Virus record (IMG/VR): IMGVR_UViG_3300043039_000142
Coordinates: 1 to 29,315 of that record
DNA length: 29,315 nt
Source of the DNA: a virus
Lineage: Duplodnaviria; Caudoviricetes
Reading direction: 5' to 3' (one strand)
The translations under genes were made by a program, and so were the position numbers. Of this stretch, positions 1,585 through 26,719 are shown in pieces (the first letter of the stretch is position 1; every line of letters starts with the position of its first letter). Under the pieces are notes generated by a model that worked only from the letters and a program-made list of their open reading frames with translations, did not search any database and was not told the DNA's origin.

Positions 1585-3312
1585 TTAAGCATAACTGCTA
1601 TACGCATTATCGCTATATACATCACCAGACTCTACTCTTGACCATATTCCACCCTTGTTTTTAGACATATTATGATTGGTAGAATAAGTGTCTAGATAGT
1701 CAGCAAGCCCTGGAACAGGATATCTTATGTCAATCATACCAAGCTGAGACACTGTATCGATAAAGTCATCTTCGGCTCCAAATCCAGCATACGTAACATA
1801 TTTCAATTGATTAAGCGCCTCTCTCATATCTTGAGTATTTCTTAATTCATTAGGAAAAAATATTTTTTTATTCTGGAACATTGGAAGCATCATTCTGAAT
1901 CTCCAGTGTTTGTTTCCACCTTCAAGTCTAGACATGATTCCTTCAGCTCCCTGCTTAGCACCTTTCTGTCTAGCAATGGTAAACCATTCACTTCTCTTGA
2001 GCATCATTTCTTTTAATGCGAATATATGAGCTTTTTGCTGACCATCTACTTCTATCCCGACATCAACACTTCTTCCTCTTGATGTAGCCCAATATTTAAC
2101 CATTCTAAATAGTTCATCATATTGCTCCTGAATGCCTTGTCTTTTTACACATAAATCAAGAAGATAATAATCTTGGTTTGGACCAACAGCCCAAGTTGTT
2201 ATTGCACTAAAATCACTTTTTGCCTCACTTGTAGTAGTAAAGTCAGTGGTTATGTATATATTATATGCACCAAGTCTTGATTCTATATCTGATCTAGAAT
2301 ACCATTCAATCATTGAATCTTGGATCATTCTATCTTCTTCTGAACTAATTCTAAGCATAAGCTCTTGGTTGAATGCTCTAGTCGAATTTGATCCAGCTGC
2401 ATCTTCGTATCTTTCCATTACTCTCTCATAGGAATGCATTTGTTCCCATGCTCCAACAAAGTCTTCTCTCTTTAAGTCTGGTCCGATTCGTTCACATATT
2501 GGCAAACAAACTGGAGTCCAAGAGCCAGATTCAAGAGCTGAGTAAACGGGATCCTCTTTGTTAAATGGAGTATTAACAAGTATAACTTTACCTCGTCTAC
2601 CATCAAGTGCATTAATTGCATCAGAATATAGCATTGACCTAACATTGTTCATTATTGTTTCAGAGTTAGCATCAGCTTCTGTCTTAATAATATCGTCACC
2701 AAATATAAGTTGAGGTCTTTGACCTTTATATCTAATACCCCTGATAGATGAGTTTCCACCTTTGGTTTTAAACATAAACGATCTATCTAAAGCCTTTCCT
2801 TTTCCTTGTCGAAGGAACTCACATTCTTGGTCTGTAAATCTCATGTCTTCAAAGAATTCATTACAAAATATACTTTCCTCACACATATCTCTAATGGTGT
2901 TTGCCATAACTTTAGCACCACCTTCCTGAGAATCACCTATGCCAACAGAAAATGAAACACTACCAAAGTTTGGCATTGTTCCTTTTATTGCTAAATATAC
3001 TGGCATGAATGCAGTTATAATTGTTGATTTAGCTGTACCCCTTGAAGCAATGATAGCTATCTTACGTGAGTTGATTCTAATCTTTTCCTGTATATGAGGA
3101 GCATATGGATAATTCTCTCTCTTTACATTTCCAAAAACTAAATCAACAAGAAAATAATGCATTAAAGCATTACCAACTTCTGGCTCTTTTCCAAGAACCA
3201 ATCTTATGACATTAAAAAAATCTAGAGCATCTTCTGATGGAGAATATCCACCAAAGGTCAAATCTATATTATCCAATGCTTCATCTACATTAAAAGAATA
3301 ATCACTAGCCAT
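1585..3312 (-). CDS. terL: Terminase large subunit, N4 gp68-like
   Basis: Walker A-like ASRGTAKST, Walker B IRGIR...LIFGDD, motif III NTPF, nuclease motifs ITTDF, SDFSA, GIEVDG and EDDFIDTVS; FNQELMLRI block recalled from N4-type terminases. Confidence 0.93.
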   Translation of the reverse strand: MASDYSFNVDEALDNIDLTFGGYSPSEDALDFFNVIRLVLGKEPEVGNALMHYFLVDLVFGNVKRENYPYAPHIQEKIRINSRKIAIIASRGTAKSTIITAFMPVYLAIKGTMPNFGSVSFSVGIGDSQEGGAKVMANTIRDMCEESIFCNEFFEDMRFTDQECEFLRQGKGKALDRSFMFKTKGGNSSIRGIRYKGQRPQLIFGDDIIKTEADANSETIMNNVRSMLYSDAINALDGRRGKVILVNTPFNKEDPVYSALESGSWTPVCLPICERIGPDLKREDFVGAWEQMHSYERVMERYEDAAGSNSTRAFNQELMLRISSEEDRMIQDSMIEWYSRSDIESRLGAYNIYITTDFTTTSEAKSDFSAITTWAVGPNQDYYLLDLCVKRQGIQEQYDELFRMVKYWATSRGRSVDVGIEVDGQQKAHIFALKEMMLKRSEWFTIARQKGAKQGAEGIMSRLEGGNKHWRFRMMLPMFQNKKIFFPNELRNTQDMREALNQLKYVTYAGFGAEDDFIDTVSQLGMIDIRYPVPGLADYLDTYSTNHNMSKNKGGIWSRVESGDVYSDNAYSSYA

Positions 3313-4097: not shown

Positions 4098-4274
4098 TTA
4101 AAACTCCATCTTGTTTTGTTCAAGCAAAACTCTGTTTACATTTTTATATTCTCTAGCCATTGTTCTTACAGCGGAACTAATATTCTCAGAACCAGTATGT
4201 TTAGTACCGTATATCTTTAAAATATCAATTGTCTCTTGGTCTAAAAGCAATGTTTTTTTAATACCTTTACCCAT
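4098..4274 (-). CDS. Small RHH-like DNA-binding protein (58 aa; not in ORF track)
   Basis: Hand translation MGKGIKKTLLLDQETIDILKIYGTKHTGSENISSAVRTMAREYKNVNRVLLEQNKMEF; AAGGA RBS; beta-strand plus two-helix pattern; stop abuts the gp69-like start. Confidence 0.7.
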   Translation of the reverse strand: MGKGIKKTLLLDQETIDILKIYGTKHTGSENISSAVRTMAREYKNVNRVLLEQNKMEF

Positions 4275-4328
4275 GTTTTTCCTTTATTTTTTCGTTAAAT
4301 ATCATACAAATATTAGTGCATGATACTT

Positions 4329-4400
4329 TTATTATACTAACATTATACATTTAAATGTCTTAAGGAATTCTTAAGAATTATTAGGAATTATTAGGAATTA
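4329..4400 (-). promoter_or_regulatory. Sigma70-like promoter for the RHH-terminase operon, with 10-bp tandem repeats upstream
   Basis: Minus strand reads TTAAG...TTAAG...TGTATAATGTTAGTATAAT; near-perfect TTAGGAATTA repeats at 4371-4400 on the plus strand. Confidence 0.55.
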
Positions 4401-4452
4401 GAAATTAACAATTATAAGATTATTTTTAATTATTTTATTAAGTAGTTTATTA

Positions 4453-4538
4453 TGGAGGAAGACAAGGTGCACGATACCTAATGCTTTCGCATCGCTTCAC
4501 TTAGCAGGCGAGCCTAGAACCTATCTAGTTTATCTTCC
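4453..4538 (-). tRNA. tRNA-Ser(GCT)
   Basis: Acceptor GGAAGAT/GTCTTCC, anticodon loop CTGCTAA, long variable arm, encoded CCA; atypical T-loop ATCGTGC and U73. Confidence 0.85.
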
Positions 4539-4541
4539 ATT

Positions 4542-4615
4542 TGGCATGCGATCAAAGAATCGAACTTTGTCTACGAGGGTTTGGAATCCTGCACGTCGCC
4601 ATGACTGTATCACAT
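4542..4615 (-). tRNA. tRNA-Trp(CCA)
   Basis: Acceptor ATGTGAT/ATCGCAT (A1-U72, G73 as in bacterial Trp), anticodon loop TTCCAAA, T-arm CAAAG-TTCGATT-CTTTG, encoded CCA; anticodon stem imperfect. Confidence 0.85.
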
Positions 4616-4738
4616 ATTTTTGTGTTTAATTTTTCTAGTATATTTCTTTCTAGACTCTATACTTTTAGTCTGTAAATTTATTTCTCTTTGATAATTTTTT
4701 ATTATATTGATATCTCTACTTTGCTTTGCCTTCTCCAT
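4610..4738 (-). CDS. Small basic protein, ArfA/BrfA-like ribosome rescue factor candidate (42 aa; not in ORF track)
   Basis: AAGGAG RBS 5 nt before ATG; MEKAKQSRDINIIKNYQREINLQTKSIESRKKYTRKIKHKNM; C-terminal Y-x-R-K-x-K-H motif; TGA lies at tRNA-Trp positions 4-6. Confidence 0.6.
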   Translation of the reverse strand: MEKAKQSRDINIIKNYQREINLQTKSIESRKKYTRKIKHKNM

Positions 4739-4835
4739 AGCATCTCCTTGCAGCACTCATAGAATCATTTGTAGCACAGCTACACCAGCGAACAGCATTC
4801 TTTCTAGCAAATCTTTTATTATCTTTCTTTGTCAT
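4716..4835 (-). CDS. Small basic Cys-containing peptide (39 aa; not in ORF track)
   Basis: AAGGA RBS; MTKKDNKRFARKNAVRWCSCATNDSMSAARRCYGEGKAK; overlaps the start of the ArfA-like ORF. Confidence 0.5.
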   Translation of the reverse strand: MTKKDNKRFARKNAVRWCSCATNDSMSAARRCYGEGKAK

Positions 4836-4850
4836 TTTATTAATCCTTTT

Positions 4851-5330: not shown

Positions 5331-5397
5331 ATTTGTCCTTGGATAATTGTTTTATACTTGAAGTATAACACAGTTCTCCTTAACATTAACTTTACAA

Positions 5398-5472
5398 TGG
5401 AAGAGGATGTTGGATTCGAACCAACGGCTCCCTCATTAACAGTGAGGTCCCTTACCACTTGGGTACATAGCT
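5398..5472 (-). tRNA. tRNA-Asn(GTT)-like, chimeric or pseudo (acceptor stem does not pair)
   Basis: Perfect anticodon arm CCTCA-CTGTTAA-TGAGG and T-arm GTTGG-TTCGAAT-CCAAC with CCA, but 5' AGCTATG versus 3' ATCCTCT gives only 2 of 7 pairs. Confidence 0.7.
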
Positions 5473-5475
5473 ATT

Positions 5476-5547
5476 TGGTGGAGAATAACGGTAACGATCC
5501 GTTTCTTCCTGATTGCAAGTCAAGAGTCCAGCCCATCTGGATTCCAC
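5476..5547 (-). tRNA. tRNA-Ala(TGC), non-canonical
   Basis: Anticodon loop CTTGCAA, G3:U70, A73 and CCA present; T-loop ATCGTTA, U2/C71 mismatch and shortened acceptor-to-D-arm linker. Confidence 0.7.
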
Positions 5548-5557
5548 AATTTTTTTT

Positions 5558-5631
5558 TGGAGCGAGATAATGGAGTCGAACCCTTCTAGTCGATTTGGAG
5601 GACCGATACATAACCGCTCTGACAATCTCGC
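5558..5631 (-). tRNA. tRNA-Gly(TCC)
   Basis: Acceptor GCGAGAT/ATCTCGC, U73, anticodon loop CCTCCAA, T-loop TTCGACT, CCA. Confidence 0.9.
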
Positions 5632-5642
5632 ATTATTACTTA

Positions 5643-5718
5643 TGGTGTGCCTGACAGGACTTGAACCTGCAACGACATGGTTAAAAGCCATGGGTGTTAC
5701 CATTACACTTACAGACAC
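5643..5718 (-). tRNA. tRNA-Lys(TTT)
   Basis: Acceptor GTGTCTG/CAGGCAC, anticodon arm CATGG-CTTTTAA-CCATG, T-loop TTCAAGT, CCA. Confidence 0.92.
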
Positions 5719-5831
5719 ACATCAACAATTCGTATTGTTTAAAGACACACCATAAGTTTATTGTTATCTACTTATGATATGTCTATGATTTTTCCAATCT
5801 TCATAGTTAATCCTATTGTTTAATTTATTTT

Positions 5832-5908
5832 TGGTACGTAATCCAGGAATCGAACCTAGCAGTCCTTCCTTGTAAGGGAAGTTCCTAACCAATCGGCGTC
5901 TATCACGT
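5832..5908 (-). tRNA. tRNA-Val(TAC)
   Basis: Acceptor ACGTGAT/ATTACGT, anticodon arm CTTCC-CTTACAA-GGAAG, T-loop TTCGATT, A73, CCA. Confidence 0.9.
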
Positions 5909-5912
5909 ACAC

Positions 5913-5987
5913 TAGAGTCCACAGTAAGAATTTAACTTACGTATTCCTATTTTGCAGATAGGTGCAATAACGCTCTGCCATATGGAC
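5913..5987 (-). tRNA. tRNA-Cys(GCA)
   Basis: Acceptor GTCCATA/TGTGGAC, U73, anticodon arm CCTAT-CTGCAAA-ATAGG; 3' end reads CTA instead of CCA; T-loop TTAAATT. Confidence 0.85.
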
Positions 5988-6034
5988 ATTTGGTTTAAAG
6001 TATATTTGAGAAAGTTTGCTTTGGATAGGGTTAG

Positions 6035-6076
6035 AAAACAAAGGCTCTCTCAGAATAACTTCTGAAAAAGAACCTT
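6035..6076 (-). terminator. Intrinsic terminator-like hairpin of the putative attenuator
   Basis: AAGGTTCTTTTTCAGAA-GTTA-TTCTGAGAGAGCCTT (15 pairs including G:U, 2-nt bulge) followed by TGTTTT, about 50 nt upstream of the first tRNA. Confidence 0.7.
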
Positions 6077-6097
6077 GATTCTCTTTAAGAAGTTATT
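6054..6097 (-). promoter_or_regulatory. Antiterminator hairpin overlapping the leader stop codons and the terminator 5' arm
   Basis: AATAACTTCT (6097-6088) pairs perfectly with AGAAGTTATT (6063-6054); the stem extends through AAAGAGAATC/GGTTCTTTTT after one mismatch. Confidence 0.7.
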
Positions 6098-6182
6098 AGC
6101 GAATGCCGTCGGCAGCAACAGGTCTCTGATTCTCAGAAATAAAATTTATCGTCATGTTAAAATGCTTGAATAAATGTTTCAT
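6096..6182 (-). CDS. Leader peptide (28 aa) of the putative tRNA-operon attenuator (not in ORF track)
   Basis: GAAAGG RBS; MKHLFKHFNMTINFISENQRPVAADGIR then TAA TAA; promoter-like TTAAG...CTAAG...TATACT/TAATAAT at about 6224-6256. Confidence 0.65.
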   Translation of the reverse strand: MKHLFKHFNMTINFISENQRPVAADGIR

Positions 6183-6262
6183 GTTTACTACCTTTCTTAT
6201 TAGTTTGTTTAAGTTTATATAGAATTATTACATAGTATATCTTAGATACACCTTAATTATAC

Positions 6263-7655: not shown

Positions 7656-7865
7656 TTTAAATCCTTATTTTTTATATTATAAGTATACAATAGGTATACT
7701 TTATATATACTTAAGTGAGGAGGGAAAAATAAGAAAGTACCATAAAATGGGAACTCATATAGATGGCTTCCCTCTGGAGGGAAAGATTTTTGAGATTTTA
7801 TACGTATTCCCTCCAGTTAGTTTATTATACTATATAGAGGGGAGTCGTGTGACAAACACCACTTT

Positions 7866-8121
7866 TCGATTTGGTAAATAATTATGTCTTATCGATTTGG
7901 CAAAACTCGAACGAAGTGAGAGGTTTTGCAAATCGTGTATGCTATATTATTTATAACGCAAATCGAGTATCAATCTGAAAGATAAAAAAATAATTACTTG
8001 TCTACTTACTGTAGGGTTCTTCCGAATTAGTTGCTGAATCTATTTCTATATATACAAACGAATTTCCTCGCTACGCTCGCAAATCTCGTTTGATTAATAA
8101 ATATATATCAGGAATTCGGAA
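7866..8121. repeat. Two ~100-nt imperfect hairpins with a related 13-nt loop motif on opposite strands (possible origin or priming signals)
   Basis: Hairpin 7866-7966 has loop CGAACGAAGTGAG on the plus strand; hairpin 8020-8121 has loop CGAGCGTAGCGAG on the minus strand. Confidence 0.6.
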
Positions 8122-8156
8122 AGTTTATTTTTTTTATTTAATTATTAGTATGTATA

Positions 8157-8165
8157 TGGTATAAT
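8157..8165 (+). promoter_or_regulatory. Extended -10 promoter (TGGTATAAT)
   Basis: Matches TGnTATAAT, about 30 nt upstream of the 8194 start codon. Confidence 0.6.
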
Positions 8166-8193
8166 GTTAGTATAAATAAAAAAAGGAAGAACA

Positions 8194-8397
8194 ATGAGAA
8201 AAAAAATTGATGATGATGAAACATTACTAGAAGATATACTTATTGAAGAAGACACGCTTATAAAAATATCAGGCATGCCATTCTGGTTAAAGTCTGGAAC
8301 AATAATAGAAGGTGTTAAATCTAATTTTGATTTAATTAAAGACAACAAATTATTAAAGGAGATTAATCATGGAATTGTTTTACCAGTTGGATATTGA
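8194..8397 (+). CDS. Hypothetical protein (67 aa)
   Basis: AAGGA RBS; ORF track. Confidence 0.65.
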   Translation: MRKKIDDDETLLEDILIEEDTLIKISGMPFWLKSGTIIEGVKSNFDLIKDNKLLKEINHGIVLPVGY

Positions 8398-11001: not shown

Positions 11002-11673
11002 ATGAAAATTATAGCTAGAGATGAATTAGGACATGAGTTTGCAAAGACTGTTGAGATTATTGACAACGAAAATGGAACAATAGTTTCACTAGGATTTCCT
11101 TGTCAATGGTATTTCAAAGACATTAAACATGAACCAAGAGATGGTTCAGACAAAATGTACATTGATGCAGGAGGAAGAAACCACAGAGGAAGTCCAGTTT
11201 ATGTAAGCCATTCAGAACTTATGTCAATCGTTAAGAAACTAACTTGTCCTTGCACATCATGCCAAGCTGAAGAAGAACCAACTTACCAATCTCCAACTGA
11301 ATCAATCCAAGAGGCTAAATATACTCTTGAAGACATTGAAGAAGAGGAGATGTCAGAAGATGAGTTCTATAAAAGACTTGAAAGAATGCTTGTATATGGT
11401 TCAAATGTAAATGCTGAAGAGTTATTTGGCAAACCTACAGATGAAGAGCCACAAGTTATAATGTTGTGTCAACTTCCATGCGGTTCTGGTGTTATGGTTT
11501 TACAGAAACAAGCATACGATGCAAAGCTAAGACAATTAGCTAGTAACAATATCATGGAAGAGTTCATTAAAGGTATCACTGTATCTCCAAATGTTGTTCA
11601 TGCAATTGATGCAGAAATACTAACAGACTTTGATGAATTACTAAACAAATTAGGAATAAAATTCTTTAAATAA
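11002..11673 (+). CDS. Hypothetical acidic protein (223 aa)
   Basis: AAGGA RBS; CPCTSC motif and acidic linker. Confidence 0.8.
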   Translation: MKIIARDELGHEFAKTVEIIDNENGTIVSLGFPCQWYFKDIKHEPRDGSDKMYIDAGGRNHRGSPVYVSHSELMSIVKKLTCPCTSCQAEEEPTYQSPTESIQEAKYTLEDIEEEEMSEDEFYKRLERMLVYGSNVNAEELFGKPTDEEPQVIMLCQLPCGSGVMVLQKQAYDAKLRQLASNNIMEEFIKGITVSPNVVHAIDAEILTDFDELLNKLGIKFFK

Positions 11674-11936: not shown

Positions 11937-11999
11937 GTAGCAAAACAACAGCAACAAATAAGAGCTAGTCATTAATTTGGCTAGTTCAACCAGTTTTGC

Positions 12000-12129
12000 T
12001 TCTACACAATACTTCAGGCTCTTTTGAGCTTGTTGTTTCTTTTTTTCTTCTACACATAAGATAGAACGGTCAGGTAAACATCCGAGCTTCTACCTCTTCC
12101 GTTCGAACTTCTACACAATCCGATAGAAC
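12000..12129 (+). repeat. Degenerate 20-21-bp repeats TTCTAC-N10/11-GAAC
   Basis: Copies at 12048-12067, 12088-12108 and 12109-12129; partial copy TTCTACACAAT at 12000. Confidence 0.65.
12015..12046 (+). terminator. Intrinsic terminator
   Basis: CAGGCTC-TTTT-GAGCTTG followed by a long T-rich tract. Confidence 0.65.
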
Positions 12130-12327
12130 TTCCATACTCAACCAAACTTTGTATTTCAATGTAATGGTAAATTTAAGTTCAGAGGTTCATGAATCATCAA
12201 TTATAAGTAGAATGGTTCATTTCAATCAGTAAATAGGTAAATAATCAATCGGTTACATTTAAAGTTTCAGATAGAAAGAGAGCCTATTATGGACAAATCC
12301 AGTCCAATTACTTAAAAGGAGTAATGT

Positions 12328-12642
12328 ATGGAATTATTAGTAGCAGCAATTGGTTTATTAGTGGTGTTTTGGTTTAAAGATAGTATCAAATCACTAGCAA
12401 ATCTAGTAAACAACGCAATCAGAGGTTCAGCAGAGGCAACAGAAGACACTTTAGAGGTTTATGTATCAGCTGTTAAAGTGGATAATGGTAAAAAACGAGG
12501 TCATATAGTGAAAGATATCAACAAAGCAGTGGATAATAATACATTCGCCACTCAAAAAGAAATAGAAGCTCTTCTCCGTAAAGAAAATCTAACTTCAACT
12601 TCAGTTCAAGATGAAACAGAATCTTCAACCCAACAAGACTAG
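12328..12642 (+). CDS. Membrane-anchored early protein, paralog B
   Basis: AAGGAG RBS; N-terminal TM helix; FK.SIKS.ANL.N, N.K.RG and FAT..EI..LL shared with 10310-10600. Confidence 0.8.
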   Translation: MELLVAAIGLLVVFWFKDSIKSLANLVNNAIRGSAEATEDTLEVYVSAVKVDNGKKRGHIVKDINKAVDNNTFATQKEIEALLRKENLTSTSVQDETESSTQQD

Positions 12643-12876
12643 CTAGTTTTCCACATGGAATTCTAGTTGGAAAAATTAACTTCCAAGGATAGAAAATGTA
12701 AGATTTAGAGCAAGAAGATAAAATCATTAATTCAGCATGTTCCATTTATATAGAAAATGAGTTATCTGATGAATTTTGGGAATCAATAAATGATCTTCCA
12801 AATCAAAAAGAAGTATTGTTGGCATTAGATTCAGCATTTCATGCAGGAGCTAAAGTTCAAAAAGAACTAAACCAAA

Positions 12877-13062
12877 GTGAAAACCTATAATGAGGAGATG
12901 GAGATGGAATATTTATTAGTATTTATGTTATATAGAACAGGAGTTACACAAATTCCAGTTACAAATTTAGAGGCTTGCAATAAAATTGGCAACAAGCTTC
13001 TAAAAGATTCACGATATATATCGAAATATCAATCATATACTTGTGTAAGGCTAAAGGAGTAA
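12877..13062 (+). CDS. Small hypothetical protein (true start probably a later ATG)
   Basis: GAGGAG and GGAG RBSs precede internal ATGs at 12898 and 12904. Confidence 0.6.
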   Translation: MKTYNEEMEMEYLLVFMLYRTGVTQIPVTNLEACNKIGNKLLKDSRYISKYQSYTCVRLKE

Positions 13063-13122
13063 AATATGTTCCTTGAAATAGTAAATGAAGATAGTAAATG
13101 AAATAAAGCAAAAGGACTAAAC

Positions 13123-13482
13123 ATGGATAAATCAACATGGATAAGAGCTTTAGTAAATGGAGCCAAAGGTGTAGATATTCAAAAGCAAAGGTACATATAT
13201 TCATTTGATAGACATTCAAATATATTTCAGATGTATGATTCAGCACTTGACACGGATGAGGCTATAGATATAAATAGTGTAGAGATCCCAGAATTATCAA
13301 TTATAGGAGAAATGTTGCCAGTTGATGTATTAGAACATACAATAAAAACATGGTCAGAAACTAATTATCCAGATGCTCCAAATGAAAAAGGATATATGGA
13401 TAGTTTAAATAGATTATATCCAGGAAGATTTGATAAAGTCTTAGCTGAATATATAATAAACAAAACATTAAACAAAAAATAA
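13123..13482 (+). CDS. Hypothetical protein (119 aa)
   Basis: AAGGA RBS; ORF track. Confidence 0.75.
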   Translation: MDKSTWIRALVNGAKGVDIQKQRYIYSFDRHSNIFQMYDSALDTDEAIDINSVEIPELSIIGEMLPVDVLEHTIKTWSETNYPDAPNEKGYMDSLNRLYPGRFDKVLAEYIINKTLNKK

Positions 13483-13545
13483 AAACAACAACAGTAACAG
13501 TAACATTAACAACAAAACAAAAAATAAAATTAACAAGGAAAATTT

Positions 13546-14214
13546 ATGAACACTAACAATATAGAAACACGAGTAACAGGTACACCAATTGAGAAAACAA
13601 AACTTGAATTATTAATTGAGCAATTAGCTGAAAAGAAAGCCTTAAAAGCTGAAGAAATTAGAGTTAAAATTGAAGAGAAAAAGCTTGAGAGAGAAATTGA
13701 GAATCTTGACAATCCAATCTTTGAACAAAGAGCCATGGAAGAAGAAGATATGCTAACTCTAAATGCAATTATTTCATCATTTGAAGATTTAGGTGAAAAA
13801 GCAAAAGTCAGAAGAGTATTTGGTTTTGGTGTACAAGTTGATAAAATATTAACAATAGTTAAATCATTACATTATGCTCCAGGAAAAGATGATATTAGAA
13901 CAAATATGTATGCAAATGCTGGTATTTCAGAACAATTAGTTGAGGATATTGAAGATGCATTAGGTATGAGTGCATATTACAGCCCTAAACAAAATACGAT
14001 GATTGAAGAAGTTCCAGGGAATATTAATAAATTGATTTCTAATCTAAAATTAATAGCAAATGATTTACAACTACATAACCTTAAGTTAACAAAAGTTACT
14101 CAAGAAAATATCAATGCAATTAGAAAACGAGATTTACTTCAAGCAGAAGAATTGATGCAAAATACAATTGAAATGGCAGAAAAGCTTCAAGATAAAACTA
14201 CTTACCAAGAGTAA
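13546..14214 (+). CDS. Hypothetical helical protein (222 aa) upstream of the RNA polymerase
   Basis: AAGGA RBS; charged coiled-coil N-terminus. Confidence 0.8.
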   Translation: MNTNNIETRVTGTPIEKTKLELLIEQLAEKKALKAEEIRVKIEEKKLEREIENLDNPIFEQRAMEEEDMLTLNAIISSFEDLGEKAKVRRVFGFGVQVDKILTIVKSLHYAPGKDDIRTNMYANAGISEQLVEDIEDALGMSAYYSPKQNTMIEEVPGNINKLISNLKLIANDLQLHNLKLTKVTQENINAIRKRDLLQAEELMQNTIEMAEKLQDKTTYQE

Positions 14215-14311: not shown

Positions 14312-16342
14312 ATGAAACAAAGTTACAGAAGATCAAGAATCTTAGAGGGCAAACTAGATTTGCCAGAGCAAATTGTTGAATTAGTAGGTTCAAAATATAG
14401 AGAAGAAATGGATGCATTGTTCCAATCATTATGGATAAACTATGTCAAGAACAAAGGAAAACTATCAATTCCAGCATGGATGGATAGATTTAAATATCAA
14501 GAAATATTTAATGCGTTCACTATGCATTTGTCAAGAAGTGGATGGATTACAACCGTTGTTATTCCAGCAAGAAACTGGGGAGAATTATATCTAAATGAAG
14601 AAAAGTTATTACAGTTTGTTACGATTGATGAGCTTATTAAAGTAAGAGAAAGATATAAATTTCAACATTATAAATTAAACATGAATCCAGAAATAACTGG
14701 TTCAGATTTAACAAAAATAGGAAATAGAAAAAGATTTACTGGTATCAAAAGACCAGGATTCGCTCATGCAGCAAATAGCAAATTTAAATATGATATTCCA
14801 ATGCTTGAAAGATACAAAGATGTTATTGAATTAAATTTAACAAAATCAATGGATAAATTACATTTAAAATATGAATCATTTCATGACAATGTAGATTATT
14901 CATCAGTATCTAAGAATATCTTAGAATATCATACATATAATTCAGATGCAGAATTTACAACAGGTAAAAATATTAATGATTCAAGAGGTAGAGCAATTTC
15001 TGATTCATTAAGAAAAGTATTCAATCCAATAAGTAATAAAGATGCTAGAGCATTATTGATAACTCCAGGAATGAAGTTTAACGACTCTGGATTAGAAGCA
15101 GTTTATTTATTTATTGCAGAATTATTAGGTAAAAAAGCTAATACATTCAAAGAGAAAGCAAATGCTGGTAGAAGAGCATATTATAATAGAGAAATTCATG
15201 ATATGAAATATCTTGCAGAACTTAATGATAATATGACAGCTGAAGAAATTATTGAAGAGGAGAAGAGAGCAGAAGAAGCAAGAAAAGATTTACATGAAGA
15301 AATTTGGTTAGAAAGAATTTATGCAGAACTTGACGCATACAATGAATCTAAAACTATTAAAAATTCAATTCATACTAGAATTTTATATAGAAGAATCAAA
15401 AACAATAGAAACACAATTGCAGAGTATAGAGCCAGAGGAGGTGAATGGCATATATCTAGAATTCCAGGTCTTCAAGAATCAATTGATAATGCACTAAAAG
15501 ACCTTAAAGAACAAGTTATTTCTGAAGATTTCATGTGGACAGTTCCAATAGAACTTGATGCAACAGCTTCAATGTTACAAATAGAAGGTGCATTACTAAA
15601 TCACTTACCATTCCTTGACAGAACAAATTGTTGTGGAGAAATTCTTAAAGATATATGGACATTCCCAGGAATACCAAGAAATCAATTTAAGAAAGCAATG
15701 ACTCCAATATTATATGGTTCATCTAAACAATGTAATCATTTGTGGAAAAATGCTAAAATTAAATACACAAGAAAACAAGTTGTTGCATTTGAAAAGGAAG
15801 TAAGTATTGGAGAAATGGCAGTTGCTAATGAATTCCAAAAGTTTCTAATTAATGAATCAAATCCAGAAGTAAATATGACATTACATTCAATGGATGAATT
15901 CTATGAAGTAGAATGTAATAGATATACAAACGAAGGTGATTATCAAGTTAAATACATGGCATATGACACTGAATCAGATGGACCATTAACAATTTACCAT
16001 ACTCATACTAAACGAGTACCAGATTTACAACAGTTTAAAAGATTCTTTCCAACTGGATTAATTCATAATCTTGATTCACAAGTAGCCAATCAAGTATGTT
16101 TAGCATTATTATGGGTTATATCAATTCATGATGCATTCTTAGTTAATCCAATGGAAGCAAACAAAACAAGAGCTGAATATTGTAAAATGATTAATAAAAT
16201 CTATGCAAGAAGAGAAGAAATTCTTATGAATTATTTCAAATCAATTGGAATAGATTCAAGTTCAGCAACAGCATGGAAAAGAGTTACAGATAAAGTAATT
16301 CCAGCAGATGGATTTGTATGCCAACCATCAGCCTTAAAGTAA
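14312..16342 (+). CDS. Single-subunit (T7/N4 RNAPII-family) DNA-dependent RNA polymerase
   Basis: DSRGR (DxxGR), motif A PIELDATASMLQI, motif B RNQFKKAMTPILYG, LIHNLDS, motif C SIHDAF. Confidence 0.92.
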   Translation: MKQSYRRSRILEGKLDLPEQIVELVGSKYREEMDALFQSLWINYVKNKGKLSIPAWMDRFKYQEIFNAFTMHLSRSGWITTVVIPARNWGELYLNEEKLLQFVTIDELIKVRERYKFQHYKLNMNPEITGSDLTKIGNRKRFTGIKRPGFAHAANSKFKYDIPMLERYKDVIELNLTKSMDKLHLKYESFHDNVDYSSVSKNILEYHTYNSDAEFTTGKNINDSRGRAISDSLRKVFNPISNKDARALLITPGMKFNDSGLEAVYLFIAELLGKKANTFKEKANAGRRAYYNREIHDMKYLAELNDNMTAEEIIEEEKRAEEARKDLHEEIWLERIYAELDAYNESKTIKNSIHTRILYRRIKNNRNTIAEYRARGGEWHISRIPGLQESIDNALKDLKEQVISEDFMWTVPIELDATASMLQIEGALLNHLPFLDRTNCCGEILKDIWTFPGIPRNQFKKAMTPILYGSSKQCNHLWKNAKIKYTRKQVVAFEKEVSIGEMAVANEFQKFLINESNPEVNMTLHSMDEFYEVECNRYTNEGDYQVKYMAYDTESDGPLTIYHTHTKRVPDLQQFKRFFPTGLIHNLDSQVANQVCLALLWVISIHDAFLVNPMEANKTRAEYCKMINKIYARREEILMNYFKSIGIDSSSATAWKRVTDKVIPADGFVCQPSALK

Positions 16343-19159: not shown

Positions 19160-19519
19160 ATGAGTTCTGATTTAATTTTTGCACTTATTTTTATAATTAT
19201 CGTTTTTATTATTGGATATGTATTAAATCAATTTATTGTTATAAAATTATCACTTTTAATAAAAGGATATTCAAAAACAGAACAAAATGAAATTTTATCT
19301 ATTTGCAAATATAATAAATATCATATTCTATATTTTGATTTTAAAATATTAGATAAATTTACTTTCTTTGGAAAAATTTTAATATTATTAACATATTTAA
19401 TTTTAATAATATTGTCGCTTCCATCACTTATACTTATCGAAACTTACAAGATTATTCCATATTTAATATATAAAAAATCTTATCTAAAGGAGATTGAAAA
19501 TGAGAAGAATGTGAGATAA
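19160..19519 (+). CDS. Membrane protein (119 aa)
   Basis: AAGGAG RBS; two TM-like segments. Confidence 0.7.
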   Translation: MSSDLIFALIFIIIVFIIGYVLNQFIVIKLSLLIKGYSKTEQNEILSICKYNKYHILYFDFKILDKFTFFGKILILLTYLILIILSLPSLILIETYKIIPYLIYKKSYLKEIENEKNVR

Positions 19520-19529
19520 TTTACAAAAT

Positions 19530-20990
19530 TAATTCATGCGTATATAGAGCAACGGCTGATACCGTAGTGGCTATATGAACTTAAAGTATTAACATAACAT
19601 AGAATTAAGTAAACAATAATTGAGTCCTTAAGGGACCGCAAACATATTACTCGTAGACCAATTAGTAGGCTAAATGAACACTGTAATTGGCACAAATTAA
19701 AGTAAGCAATACATAAAAGAATATACCACTTAATAGGTATCATCGGGTTTATCAGATGTAATCGATAATCAGACGAGTGTACAGCGGCGAGCCATACTGT
19801 GACGTGGACGAAGTACACAAGTAGCAACACAATGAAAAGAGATAAGGAACCTTCTGACTAGATATAATTCGAACGAGAAGTGGGTGTATTTCCAAGTAAT
19901 TGTATTGTGAAAAACAAATACGGAATAGAGAAAATAGTGTAAGTTTTGAAAACATGTAATAAGAGCCTTACTAATTGAATAACAATGGTAATTCCGTAGT
20001 TTAACTAGTTCATTCACAAAACCGTATTATTGTACCGTTTTACGAGTGAATATACATGAATATAATCACCAAGTTATTTAACTTACTACTGTTATCAACC
20101 ATACAAACAAGATACCAACTGGCATAACCAGAAAGGATATGGCGTCCTTACCCAACGAATCCAGAACTGTGTATCAGATCACAGAATACATAAAGATAAA
20201 AAGACTGAAAACAATAATAACAAAAGACAAATAATAAAACAAAAAAGCACAAGAGGAAATCATAAACTTCCAAAGTACACAGAAGCTATTTGACTTGGGC
20301 TATAAAGAACCATAAGGGATCTAGTTTCATAAAATGACCGATGAACTCAGAAGTCTGACCTTAAAACTAAACCAGAGTACCAGTAACGCACAGGCTGGTT
20401 AAGCAAAGAGTGCACCATAAATATGATTTTGAAATTTCGGAGAATCAAATCCACTTCTTAGTACCAAACTTTTATTGTGAAAAATAAATTAAATACTAAT
20501 TTGTAGTAATATCTATAACCATATAAAAGATGTTACTGCAAACTAGTAAATGACTGGCTAGTTGACTAAGGGGAACATATAATGAACAAATTAACAAGAC
20601 GACGGGAAGTTATTCTGAGTGTAAATTTAACCTTACACAAGAGCCAGAGATGTAGTTTAAAGTCTAAAAACTATACTCTGGACAATTTAGTACTTACTTG
20701 AAGTTGTATCATTAGATATTATTTCAAGTCAGTAAAATGGTCAACTGACAAATAAAATAATAACGATATTTATATATACAAATTTCCATATTAAATTCAA
20801 GACCTAAGTTTTTAATATGGATTCAGAAATACCTTCATTCCTTATAAATGTTAATCCAGGCTAAATCTGGAAGGTATACTCAGATAATTATTCATCGTAC
20901 TCAGAATAATTATCGAACAACTAACCAGCAGCAAGTTTAATCATGCTAACCAGATTGCCCTCTGAAGTCACTGATTGCTTGTTGCCTACT
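19530..20990 (+). ncRNA. Candidate large structured non-coding RNA (about 1.45 kb; one RNA or tandem domains)
   Basis: No plus-strand ORF of 60 aa or more in an otherwise gene-dense block; visibly less AT-rich than flanks; many stems and long-range pairings whose wobbles are G:U on the plus strand. Confidence 0.65.
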
Positions 20991-21039
20991 ATTTATAAAA
21001 CAAATAAAATTAATAATCAAACAAATAAAAGGAAACATT

Positions 21040-21543
21040 ATGAGAAAAAAAGTAGGAAGTGATATTGCAACACAAGTAGGAATTATTGTTATGCAAGGAT
21101 GCAGAAATGGAACAACTGTATTGGAAATAAGACAAGAAGTTGAAAAACAATTTGGAAATGAAGTTGCACAATTAGTAAGCATTGAAACATTATCTAAAAC
21201 ATTACACTTTGTTAATGTATTGGATTCTATAGCAAATACTTTTATTGGTGAAGAAAAAGAAGAAAAAACTGAAACTATTTCATTAAAATCATTGATGGAA
21301 CAATCTTGTTATCCGTCTGAAAAAGATGAAGAAAAATATGAAGAAAACAATGACAAGTGCTTAAACAATTTATGCAAAGATGAAACAACTTCATCTGATA
21401 ACAATAAAGATGATAAAGAGAAATCAATTCTTGAGTTAATAGAAGAAATTGGTAGATTATCTAAACAAAAACTTCAACCACAAATTATAAGAATTTCAAG
21501 TCCAAAAGACTTAAAAAAATTCTTTGATAATTTTAATAAATAG
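21040..21543 (+). CDS. Hypothetical protein (167 aa)
   Basis: AAGGA RBS; immediately downstream of the ncRNA candidate. Confidence 0.75.
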   Translation: MRKKVGSDIATQVGIIVMQGCRNGTTVLEIRQEVEKQFGNEVAQLVSIETLSKTLHFVNVLDSIANTFIGEEKEEKTETISLKSLMEQSCYPSEKDEEKYEENNDKCLNNLCKDETTSSDNNKDDKEKSILELIEEIGRLSKQKLQPQIIRISSPKDLKKFFDNFNK

Positions 21544-21626
21544 GCAAAATGCCTATTTGTTTTGTTTAAATATATATTTTATATGATTAAACAAGACAAA
21601 TAATATTAAAGATAAGGAATAATATT

Positions 21627-24622: not shown

Positions 24623-24721
24623 ATGAATATTATCATGTTGGCTGATTCGTATAAATACGGACAATGGAAACAATATTATCCAACAATGCAAAGCATGTTT
24701 GATTATAATAACTCAATGTAA
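24623..24721 (+). pseudogene. nadV: Nicotinamide phosphoribosyltransferase (NAMPT/NadV-like) N-terminal remnant
   Basis: GAGGAG RBS; MNIIMLADSYKYGQWKQYYPTMQSMFDY matches the DSYK..(H/Q)..QY start of the family, but the frame stops after 32 codons. Confidence 0.7.
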
Positions 24722-26161: not shown

Positions 26162-26719
26162 ATGAATAAAGAAATTAAATATGGATTATTCCTAGGAAGA
26201 TTTCAACCAATACATAACGGTCATGCTTCAATAATAGAACAAATTAAACTTGATGGATTAGAACCAATTATATTAATCGGATCAGCTCAAGAATTCGGAA
26301 CATATAAAAATAAATATCATGTACTAGATAGAAAAGAGATGATTTGGTTAATTTATCCAAAAATTAAAATAATTTGCCTGCATGATAATTCATCTTGGGA
26401 AGAATGGTTTTCAGATATGGACAAATCGTTAAAACTTGGGTTAGATGAAAACTGGAAAGAAAAATCAATTTTATACACACACAATAAAGAAGAAGATAGA
26501 CAAGATTTTGAATATAAAGGAATAAAATTTAAAAATGATTTTTATTCTCAATGCTTTGTGTACGAAGGTTTAAAAACAAAAAATCTTAAAACACATTTTT
26601 CTGATATTTACATTAGAGCCACGCAAGTGAGAAATAATTTAGAAGAGCATAAACATCATTTGCATCCGAAAGTTTATGAATTTATAAAAACAAAAGAAAT
26701 TGAAAATAGGAACAAATAA
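26162..26719 (+). CDS. NMN adenylyltransferase (NadM-like, HxGH nucleotidyltransferase)
   Basis: LGRFQPIHNGH, IGSAQ and IRATQVR motifs. Confidence 0.85.
   Translation: MNKEIKYGLFLGRFQPIHNGHASIIEQIKLDGLEPIILIGSAQEFGTYKNKYHVLDRKEMIWLIYPKIKIICLHDNSSWEEWFSDMDKSLKLGLDENWKEKSILYTHNKEEDRQDFEYKGIKFKNDFYSQCFVYEGLKTKNLKTHFSDIYIRATQVRNNLEEHKHHLHPKVYEFIKTKEIENRNK

What the first reader, a model, noticed from the sequence alone, without database searches (positions are those of the whole stretch)
19530..20990. ~1.45-kb gene-free, densely base-paired region: candidate giant structured phage ncRNA
Seen, long-range pairs: ATTCATG 19532-38 with CATGAAT 20055-61; GAGAAGTGGGT 19875-85 with ATCCACTTCTT 20449-59 (crosses the first, so a pseudoknot or an alternative); TACGGAAT 19919-26 with ATTCCGTA 19991-98; GCTGGTTA 20394-401 with TAACCAGC 20922-29; AGTTATTCTGAGT 20608-20 with ACTCAGAATAATT 20899-911. 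Local stems: 20500-20542 (15 bp), 20644-20681, 20696-20729, 20786-20820, 20829-20877 and 20927-20985. Wobbles are G:U on the plus strand, indicating a plus-strand RNA. An A-rich linker at about 20190-20250 may separate two domains. Known: phages encode large structured RNAs (GOLLD about 800 nt, ROOL about 600 nt). I cannot match this to those or to group I/II intron, RNase P or tmRNA motifs by eye. Inference: a new or unusually large ncRNA class.
Basis: partly seen in the sequence, partly recalled or inferred. Interest (0 to 1): 0.85.

Follow-up and report, generated by a model that had tools for sequence, protein, structure and literature searches.

The report
Orphan hairpin-rich phage noncoding RNA candidate
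An uncultured N4-related phage carries a 1.5-kb protein-free stretch whose last third forms strong hairpins and which matches no catalogued RNA family; it is likely a gene for one or more folded RNAs, but no relative or transcript was found and a single giant knotted fold is unproven.

Summary
Observation partly confirmed. 19520-21000 is non-coding (no frame scores as a gene) and richer in G+C than its flanks (0.32 against 0.22 and 0.25). All 5 long-range pairs and 6 local stems are present as listed. The whole stretch folds beyond chance (z -3.3, 0 of 35 shuffles), but seven local hairpins in 20494-20985 carry that signal. The 3' half has z -6.1 and the 5' part z -1.0. With the hairpins kept and linkers shuffled, 109 of 173 controls fold as well. 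The long-range helices are at chance level. There is no Rfam match, and GOLLD and group I/II introns fail their tests. No homologue turned up in phage, plasmid or related-phage searches, so covariation could not be tested. The phage is N4/AD45-related, and its relatives carry unrelated folded non-coding islands. Best reading: a plus-strand, modular structured ncRNA locus inside the middle operon, likely processed out and acting as a decoy or scaffold (0.45). One 1.45-kb pseudoknotted GOLLD-like cage remains possible (about 0.2).

The parts
19160..19519 (+). Upstream ORF, 119 aa, hydrophobic, no family; its stop codon abuts the gap, leaving no spacer
19488..19514 (+). Strong RBS plus ATG giving a 4-codon mini-ORF (MRRM) that overlaps the end of the upstream gene; possibly the remnant start of a replaced gene
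   Evidence: meaning inferred
19520..21000 (+). Non-coding stretch, G+C 0.32 against 0.22 upstream and 0.25 downstream; candidate ncRNA locus
19525..20070 (+). 5' part, G-rich, weakly folded (z -1.0); candidate nested helices 19532-45/20050-61, 19647-57/20039-49, 19659-69/19967-77 and crossing 19919-26/19991-98, none individually significant
19875..19885 (+). 5' strand of the 11-bp helix with 20449-20459 (second-best long-range helix, -14.2 kcal/mol); has a local alternative partner at 19849-56
20151..20299 (+). Interrupted 17-bp stem whose roughly 100-nt loop holds the A-rich stretch 20190-20250
20394..20401 (+). 5' strand of the 8-bp helix with 20922-20929; its complement TAACCAG occurs three times (20125, 20922, 20947)
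20494..20548 (+). Hairpin, 21 positions, 2 G:U and 1 A.C
20582..20701 (+). 39-codon mini-ORF behind an RBS-like AAGGGG; no family; such an ORF arises in 20 of 300 shuffles
20608..20622 (+). 5' strand of the best long-range helix (15 bp with 20897-20911, -16.1 kcal/mol), which would enclose four hairpins; its complement ACTCAGA occurs three times (20345, 20878, 20899)
20644..20681 (+). Hairpin, 14 bp, one bulge, 1 G:U
20691..20734 (+). Hairpin, 18 bp, 2 G:U
20785..20821 (+). Hairpin, 11 perfect pairs
20855..20871 (+). 6-bp hairpin inside the possible outer stem 20829-36/20870-77
20883..20914 (+). Hairpin, 11 perfect pairs, built from a near-tandem duplicate that carries the self-complementary 8-mer ATAATTAT twice; competes with the 20608/20911 helix
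20927..20985 (+). 3'-terminal branched hairpin; the following 20984-91 can pair with 19663-70
21040..21543 (+). Downstream ORF, 167 aa, singleton, with its own A-rich leader and RBS
21535..21561 (+). First terminator-like site downstream; none at the 3' edge of the gap

Best explanation
The stretch is a protein-free, G+C-raised insert in the phage's rightward operon whose 3' third folds into seven strong hairpins; it is likely transcribed on the plus strand as part of that operon and cut out by host ribonucleases into one or a few stable RNAs that would act as an abundant decoy or scaffold for host RNA-binding proteins or nucleases during infection. Shown: non-coding, composition step, 3' hairpin cluster, no family match, no edge terminator. 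Inferred: strand, co-transcription, processing, modular folding (local modules rather than one long-range fold) and the decoy or scaffold role, which rests on analogy to other large phage RNAs only.
For: Non-coding in all six frames. G+C 0.32 vs 0.22/0.25. 3' half z -6.08 on + vs -3.02 on -; 8 G:T vs 1 A:C in the hairpins (biased choice). Folding energy is reproduced when only the hairpins are kept (109 of 173), which fits local modules. All neighbouring genes run on +, the upstream stop abuts the gap, promoter-like sites are not above shuffles (13 vs 16.8) and the next terminator is at 21535-61. Related phages carry gene-free islands of 0.9-1.5 kb, 8 of the 15 others with tRNA genes, two of them (L057, L151) downstream of the same polymerase gene and with the same G+C step; 10 islands tested fold at z -1.4 to -5.9 (6 shuffles each). 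Abundant phage RNAs of 0.6-1.15 kb are known (PMC9241854, PMC12286853, passages read).
Against: No homologue, so no covariation for any stem. The 5' 800 nt fold no better than shuffles. The strand-neutral wobble count shows no bias. By mean local folding the gap (z -1.5) ranks below the top 45 of 171 long gaps of this phage group, many of which are small-gene regions with terminators. Nothing bears on function directly.
Confidence: 0.45

Rival explanations
1. One continuous RNA of about 1.45 kb with a pseudoknotted core, two domains and a disordered A-rich loop, assembling into an RNA-only oligomer in the manner of GOLLD and ROOL but of a new, larger class.
For: Uninterrupted non-coding stretch with one composition step and no tRNA or internal terminator on +; G skew in 19501-20000 and C skew in 20001-20500; helices of 15 and 11 bp with pair probabilities up to 0.9 for 19875-83/20451-59; three nested 11-12 bp helices in the 5' centroid; self-complementary 8-mers and thrice-repeated 7-mers (10 of 300 shuffles) that could pair between molecules. 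GOLLD and ROOL have unresolved variable linkers (PMC12286853, passages).
Against: Long-range helices at chance level; long-range energy gain reached by 37 of 173 controls; several strands have competing partners; no GOLLD or ROOL model match; not beside tRNA genes.
Confidence: 0.22
2. The hairpins are cis-acting mRNA structure: ribonuclease III-type processing or stabilising stems and a long leader that tune the downstream gene (21040) and possibly the 39-codon mini-ORF, with no free RNA product.
For: The hairpin cluster lies directly ahead of the next gene with no terminator between; long, nearly perfect A+U-rich stems resemble processing sites (recalled from T7-type phages); RBS plus 39-codon ORF is uncommon in shuffles (20 of 300).
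Against: 1.5 kb is far more than such signals need; other intergenic leaders of the operon are short and very A+T-rich; the G+C-rich 5' part is unexplained.
Confidence: 0.12
3. A DNA-level element (replication origin, recombination or single-stranded DNA hairpin signals for the phage polymerase).
For: Several stems are perfect inverted repeats; both strands fold equally in raw energy with RNA and DNA parameters; minus strand also significant.
Against: No iteron or tandem array among the repeats found; skew does not switch here but near 8-10 kb; G+C is raised, not lowered; the divergent control region lies at 7656-8368.
Confidence: 0.1
4. A derelict, rearranged or ORF-less self-splicing intron (group I, possibly permuted, or group II).
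For: Group I introns are common in relatives; by eye 20119-20144 and 20921-20935 resemble P5 and Q-element text of those introns; GTGAG at 19511 follows an RBS and ATG; a long stem with an A-rich loop resembles an emptied ORF loop.
Against: No match to RF00028, RF00029, RF01998, RF01999, RF02001 at E<=10 in the gap; a profile of 7 introns from relatives gives no hit in the gap; no P, Q, R or S words and no D5-like hairpin on +; the P7-like pair lacks the G-binding pair; no split gene flanks it.
Confidence: 0.06
5. Decayed protein genes or neutral inserted DNA with chance and terminator-like hairpins.
For: 5' part folds at chance and has the purine skew of + strand genes; orphan RBS-ATG at 19500; singleton.
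Against: No residual codon signal, 4-17 stops per 300 nt in each + frame, no family hit in read-through frames; 3' z -6.1; hairpins lack U tails.
Confidence: 0.05

Closest known systems
GOLLD RNA (RF02032; PMC12286853, PMC5737381)
   Same: Large, protein-free, phage-borne; structured 3' part, less evident 5' part, internal unstructured stretch.
   Different: No model match at E<=10; about 1.45 kb against roughly 800 nt; 13.5 kb from the nearest tRNA gene and on the other strand; lytic N4-related phage; no covariation or expression evidence.
ROOL RNA (RF03087; PMC5737381, PMC12286853)
   Same: Phage-associated, multi-hairpin, candidate pseudoknots and linker.
   Different: No match in the Rfam scans; 2.5 times longer than the 581-nt average; pseudoknots here are unsupported.
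Staphylococcus phage K lnc001/lnc002 (PMC9241854)
   Same: Intergenic phage RNAs of 635 and 1,154 nt without a family, close in size.
   Different: Those are shown by RNA-seq, lie by tRNA genes, one with its own promoter; no DNA similarity to any record of the phage collection.
Group I introns of AD45-related phages (RF00028)
   Same: Same phage group; short look-alike words.
   Different: Core elements and model match absent; not inside a gene.
Unannotated non-coding islands of related phages (L057:18811-20165, L151:12590-13877)
   Same: Same genome region, similar length, same G+C step, plus-strand folding.
   Different: They include tRNA genes and show no sequence similarity to this stretch (alignment z 1.3 and 0.3).

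Membership tests
GOLLD | Match to covariance model RF02032 (conserved 3' domain) | tested here: not met
   (no match at E<=10)
GOLLD | Often beside tRNA islands | tested here: not met
   tRNA genes lie at 5409-5987 on the minus strand
GOLLD | Homo-oligomeric nanocage, high expression in lysis | not testable with these tools
   needs RNA and cryo-EM
ROOL | Match to RF03087 | tested here: not met
   the single-family search was also blank but rang in no control genome, so it adds little
ROOL | Covarying multistem junctions and three pseudoknots | tested here: inconclusive
   candidate crossing helices exist but at chance level; no homologues for covariation
Group I intron | P3-P7 core with P, Q, R, S elements and G-binding site; RF00028 match | tested here: not met
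   (consensus words recalled and checked against alignments)
Group I intron | Interrupts a gene whose exons rejoin | tested here: not met
   both flanking ORFs are complete with own start and stop
Group II intron | Domain 5 with catalytic triad and domain 6; RF00029 match | tested here: not met
   (none on +; two loose, mismatched places on -)
Group II intron | D1-D4 models | tested here: not met
   3 models searched singly, all Rfam families jointly
tmRNA / RNase P / rRNA / small ribozymes | Rfam or ARAGORN match | tested here: not met
   no hammerhead core word
Self-splicing or self-cleaving RNA (any) | In vitro reaction | not testable with these tools
   bench assay

The most novel reading that the evidence does not exclude
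A single ~1.45-kb, multi-pseudoknot, protein-free RNA of a new class, nearly twice the length of GOLLD, encoded by a lytic N4-related phage and assembling into an RNA-only cage or scaffold through its repeated and self-complementary segments.
Probability: 0.2. Interest if true: 0.85.

Novelty: new variant of a known kind. Interest (0 to 1): 0.47.

Why it matters
Large structured phage RNAs (GOLLD, ROOL) have solved cage structures but no known function, and few classes exist. A 1.45-kb member in a lytic N4-related phage would be larger than those described in the papers read (GOLLD over 800 nt, phage K lnc002 1,154 nt) and can be made by in vitro transcription and tested directly. Even in the modest reading, it points to uncatalogued folded non-coding islands across AD45-related phages. 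At present it is a singleton without covariation or transcript, which limits its value.

Tried and rejected
Homologue searches, all blank for a true relative: blastn vs 50,697 phage records (halves at E<=10 gave only short chance matches) and 72,556 plasmids; whole records of related phages, 31 of 34 given (best E 2e-5 in the A-rich stretch) and 28 of 34 given; 2 MAGs and 401 genomes of one phylum, probably not the host's; nhmmer over 137 loci and then 221 overlapping loci, 2.6 Mb; three single-sequence covariance models covering 463 of 1,481 nt over 97, 97 and 95 sources (one E 0.08 hit was a terminator) and two of them over 59 records. Five exact-pattern scans of viral contigs gave 51, 2, 119, 2 and 5 loci; none extended; the third scan covered 34 of 64 parts. 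One hit shared a second 9-mer (L318/L320) but reads as protein-coding on the other strand and scored E 0.4; taken as chance. Sequencing runs: no RNA holder listed; two DNA runs, one possibly the source, spanning the stretch in one contig with no difference inside the gap, the other with no cover there. Permuted group I idea (P4-, P6-, P7-like pieces): rejected. Group II idea: rejected. Partner protein: both tested neighbours are singletons with no atlas lead; the nearby HNH-type gene occurs in relatives without this stretch. GGA-type sponge: 15 GGA in about 1,560 nt, about what composition gives. Earlier findings by sequence and place: none. Literature searches listed no paper on a large RNA in AD45/N4-like phages; only titles and abstract starts were seen, and the library lacks most subscription journals.

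Full report
Context. The window is a 29.3-kb linear virus record, 29% complete, held by a shale-gas metagenome run that may be its source. The terminase (1585-3312, minus) matches phrog_38 and N4-type phages at 34-36%. The 676-aa ORF at 14312-16342 matches only Alteromonas AD45 phages at 38% among cultured phages and weakly an RNA polymerase family (E 1e-4); AD45-P1 carries N4 gp68- and gp69-like genes in the same layout. Its best relatives are 46-51% identical, so no close phage is on record. A Campylobacterota-like host is my inference from AAGGA ribosome sites and a TGnTATAAT promoter (recalled features, untested).

Noticed in passing
window 14312-16342; L052:22341-22595, L085:11027-12115, L082:9522-9815, L190:4992-5284, L181:601-812: The polymerase-like gene is one unbroken 676-aa ORF here, whereas in AD45-P1 it is annotated in pieces, and several relatives carry group I introns in it.
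   Followed up: partly
L151:11132-11470 and 12590-13877; L057:19040-20165; L062:19320-19795; L168:17075-18144: Folded non-coding islands with no Rfam family other than tRNA where scanned; L151 and L057 share a 13-nt stem motif seen by eye; L151 and L168 fold at z about -5.9. Candidates for uncatalogued RNAs.
   Followed up: partly
L424:17382-18409 with L085:19904-21004; L052:32730-33708 with L148:10657-11630: These island pairs align to each other above shuffles (z 4.4 and 4.0); may reflect shared tRNA-like or other RNA modules.
   Followed up: no
window 4098-4850 and 5331-6262: tRNA cluster on minus: Gly, Lys, Cys called, a truncated tRNA at 5409-5465, and further tRNA-like stretches by eye (near 4550-4620, 5475-5545, 5830-5910) that neither program called.
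   Followed up: no
window about 24625-24720: Short ORF behind a strong RBS whose start resembles the N-terminus of nicotinamide phosphoribosyltransferase (motif recalled), upstream of an NMN adenylyltransferase-like gene (26162-26719): possible remnant of a NAD salvage pair.
   Followed up: no
window about 21555-21572 and L151 about 11160-11175: A 16-nt T-rich word right after the terminator recurs ahead of a non-coding island in L151; possible phage promoter or terminator tail (by eye).
   Followed up: no
window 11937-12327: Intergenic stretch with a thrice-repeated TTCTACACA word after a terminator-like hairpin; similar words occur in the early region of L342.
   Followed up: no
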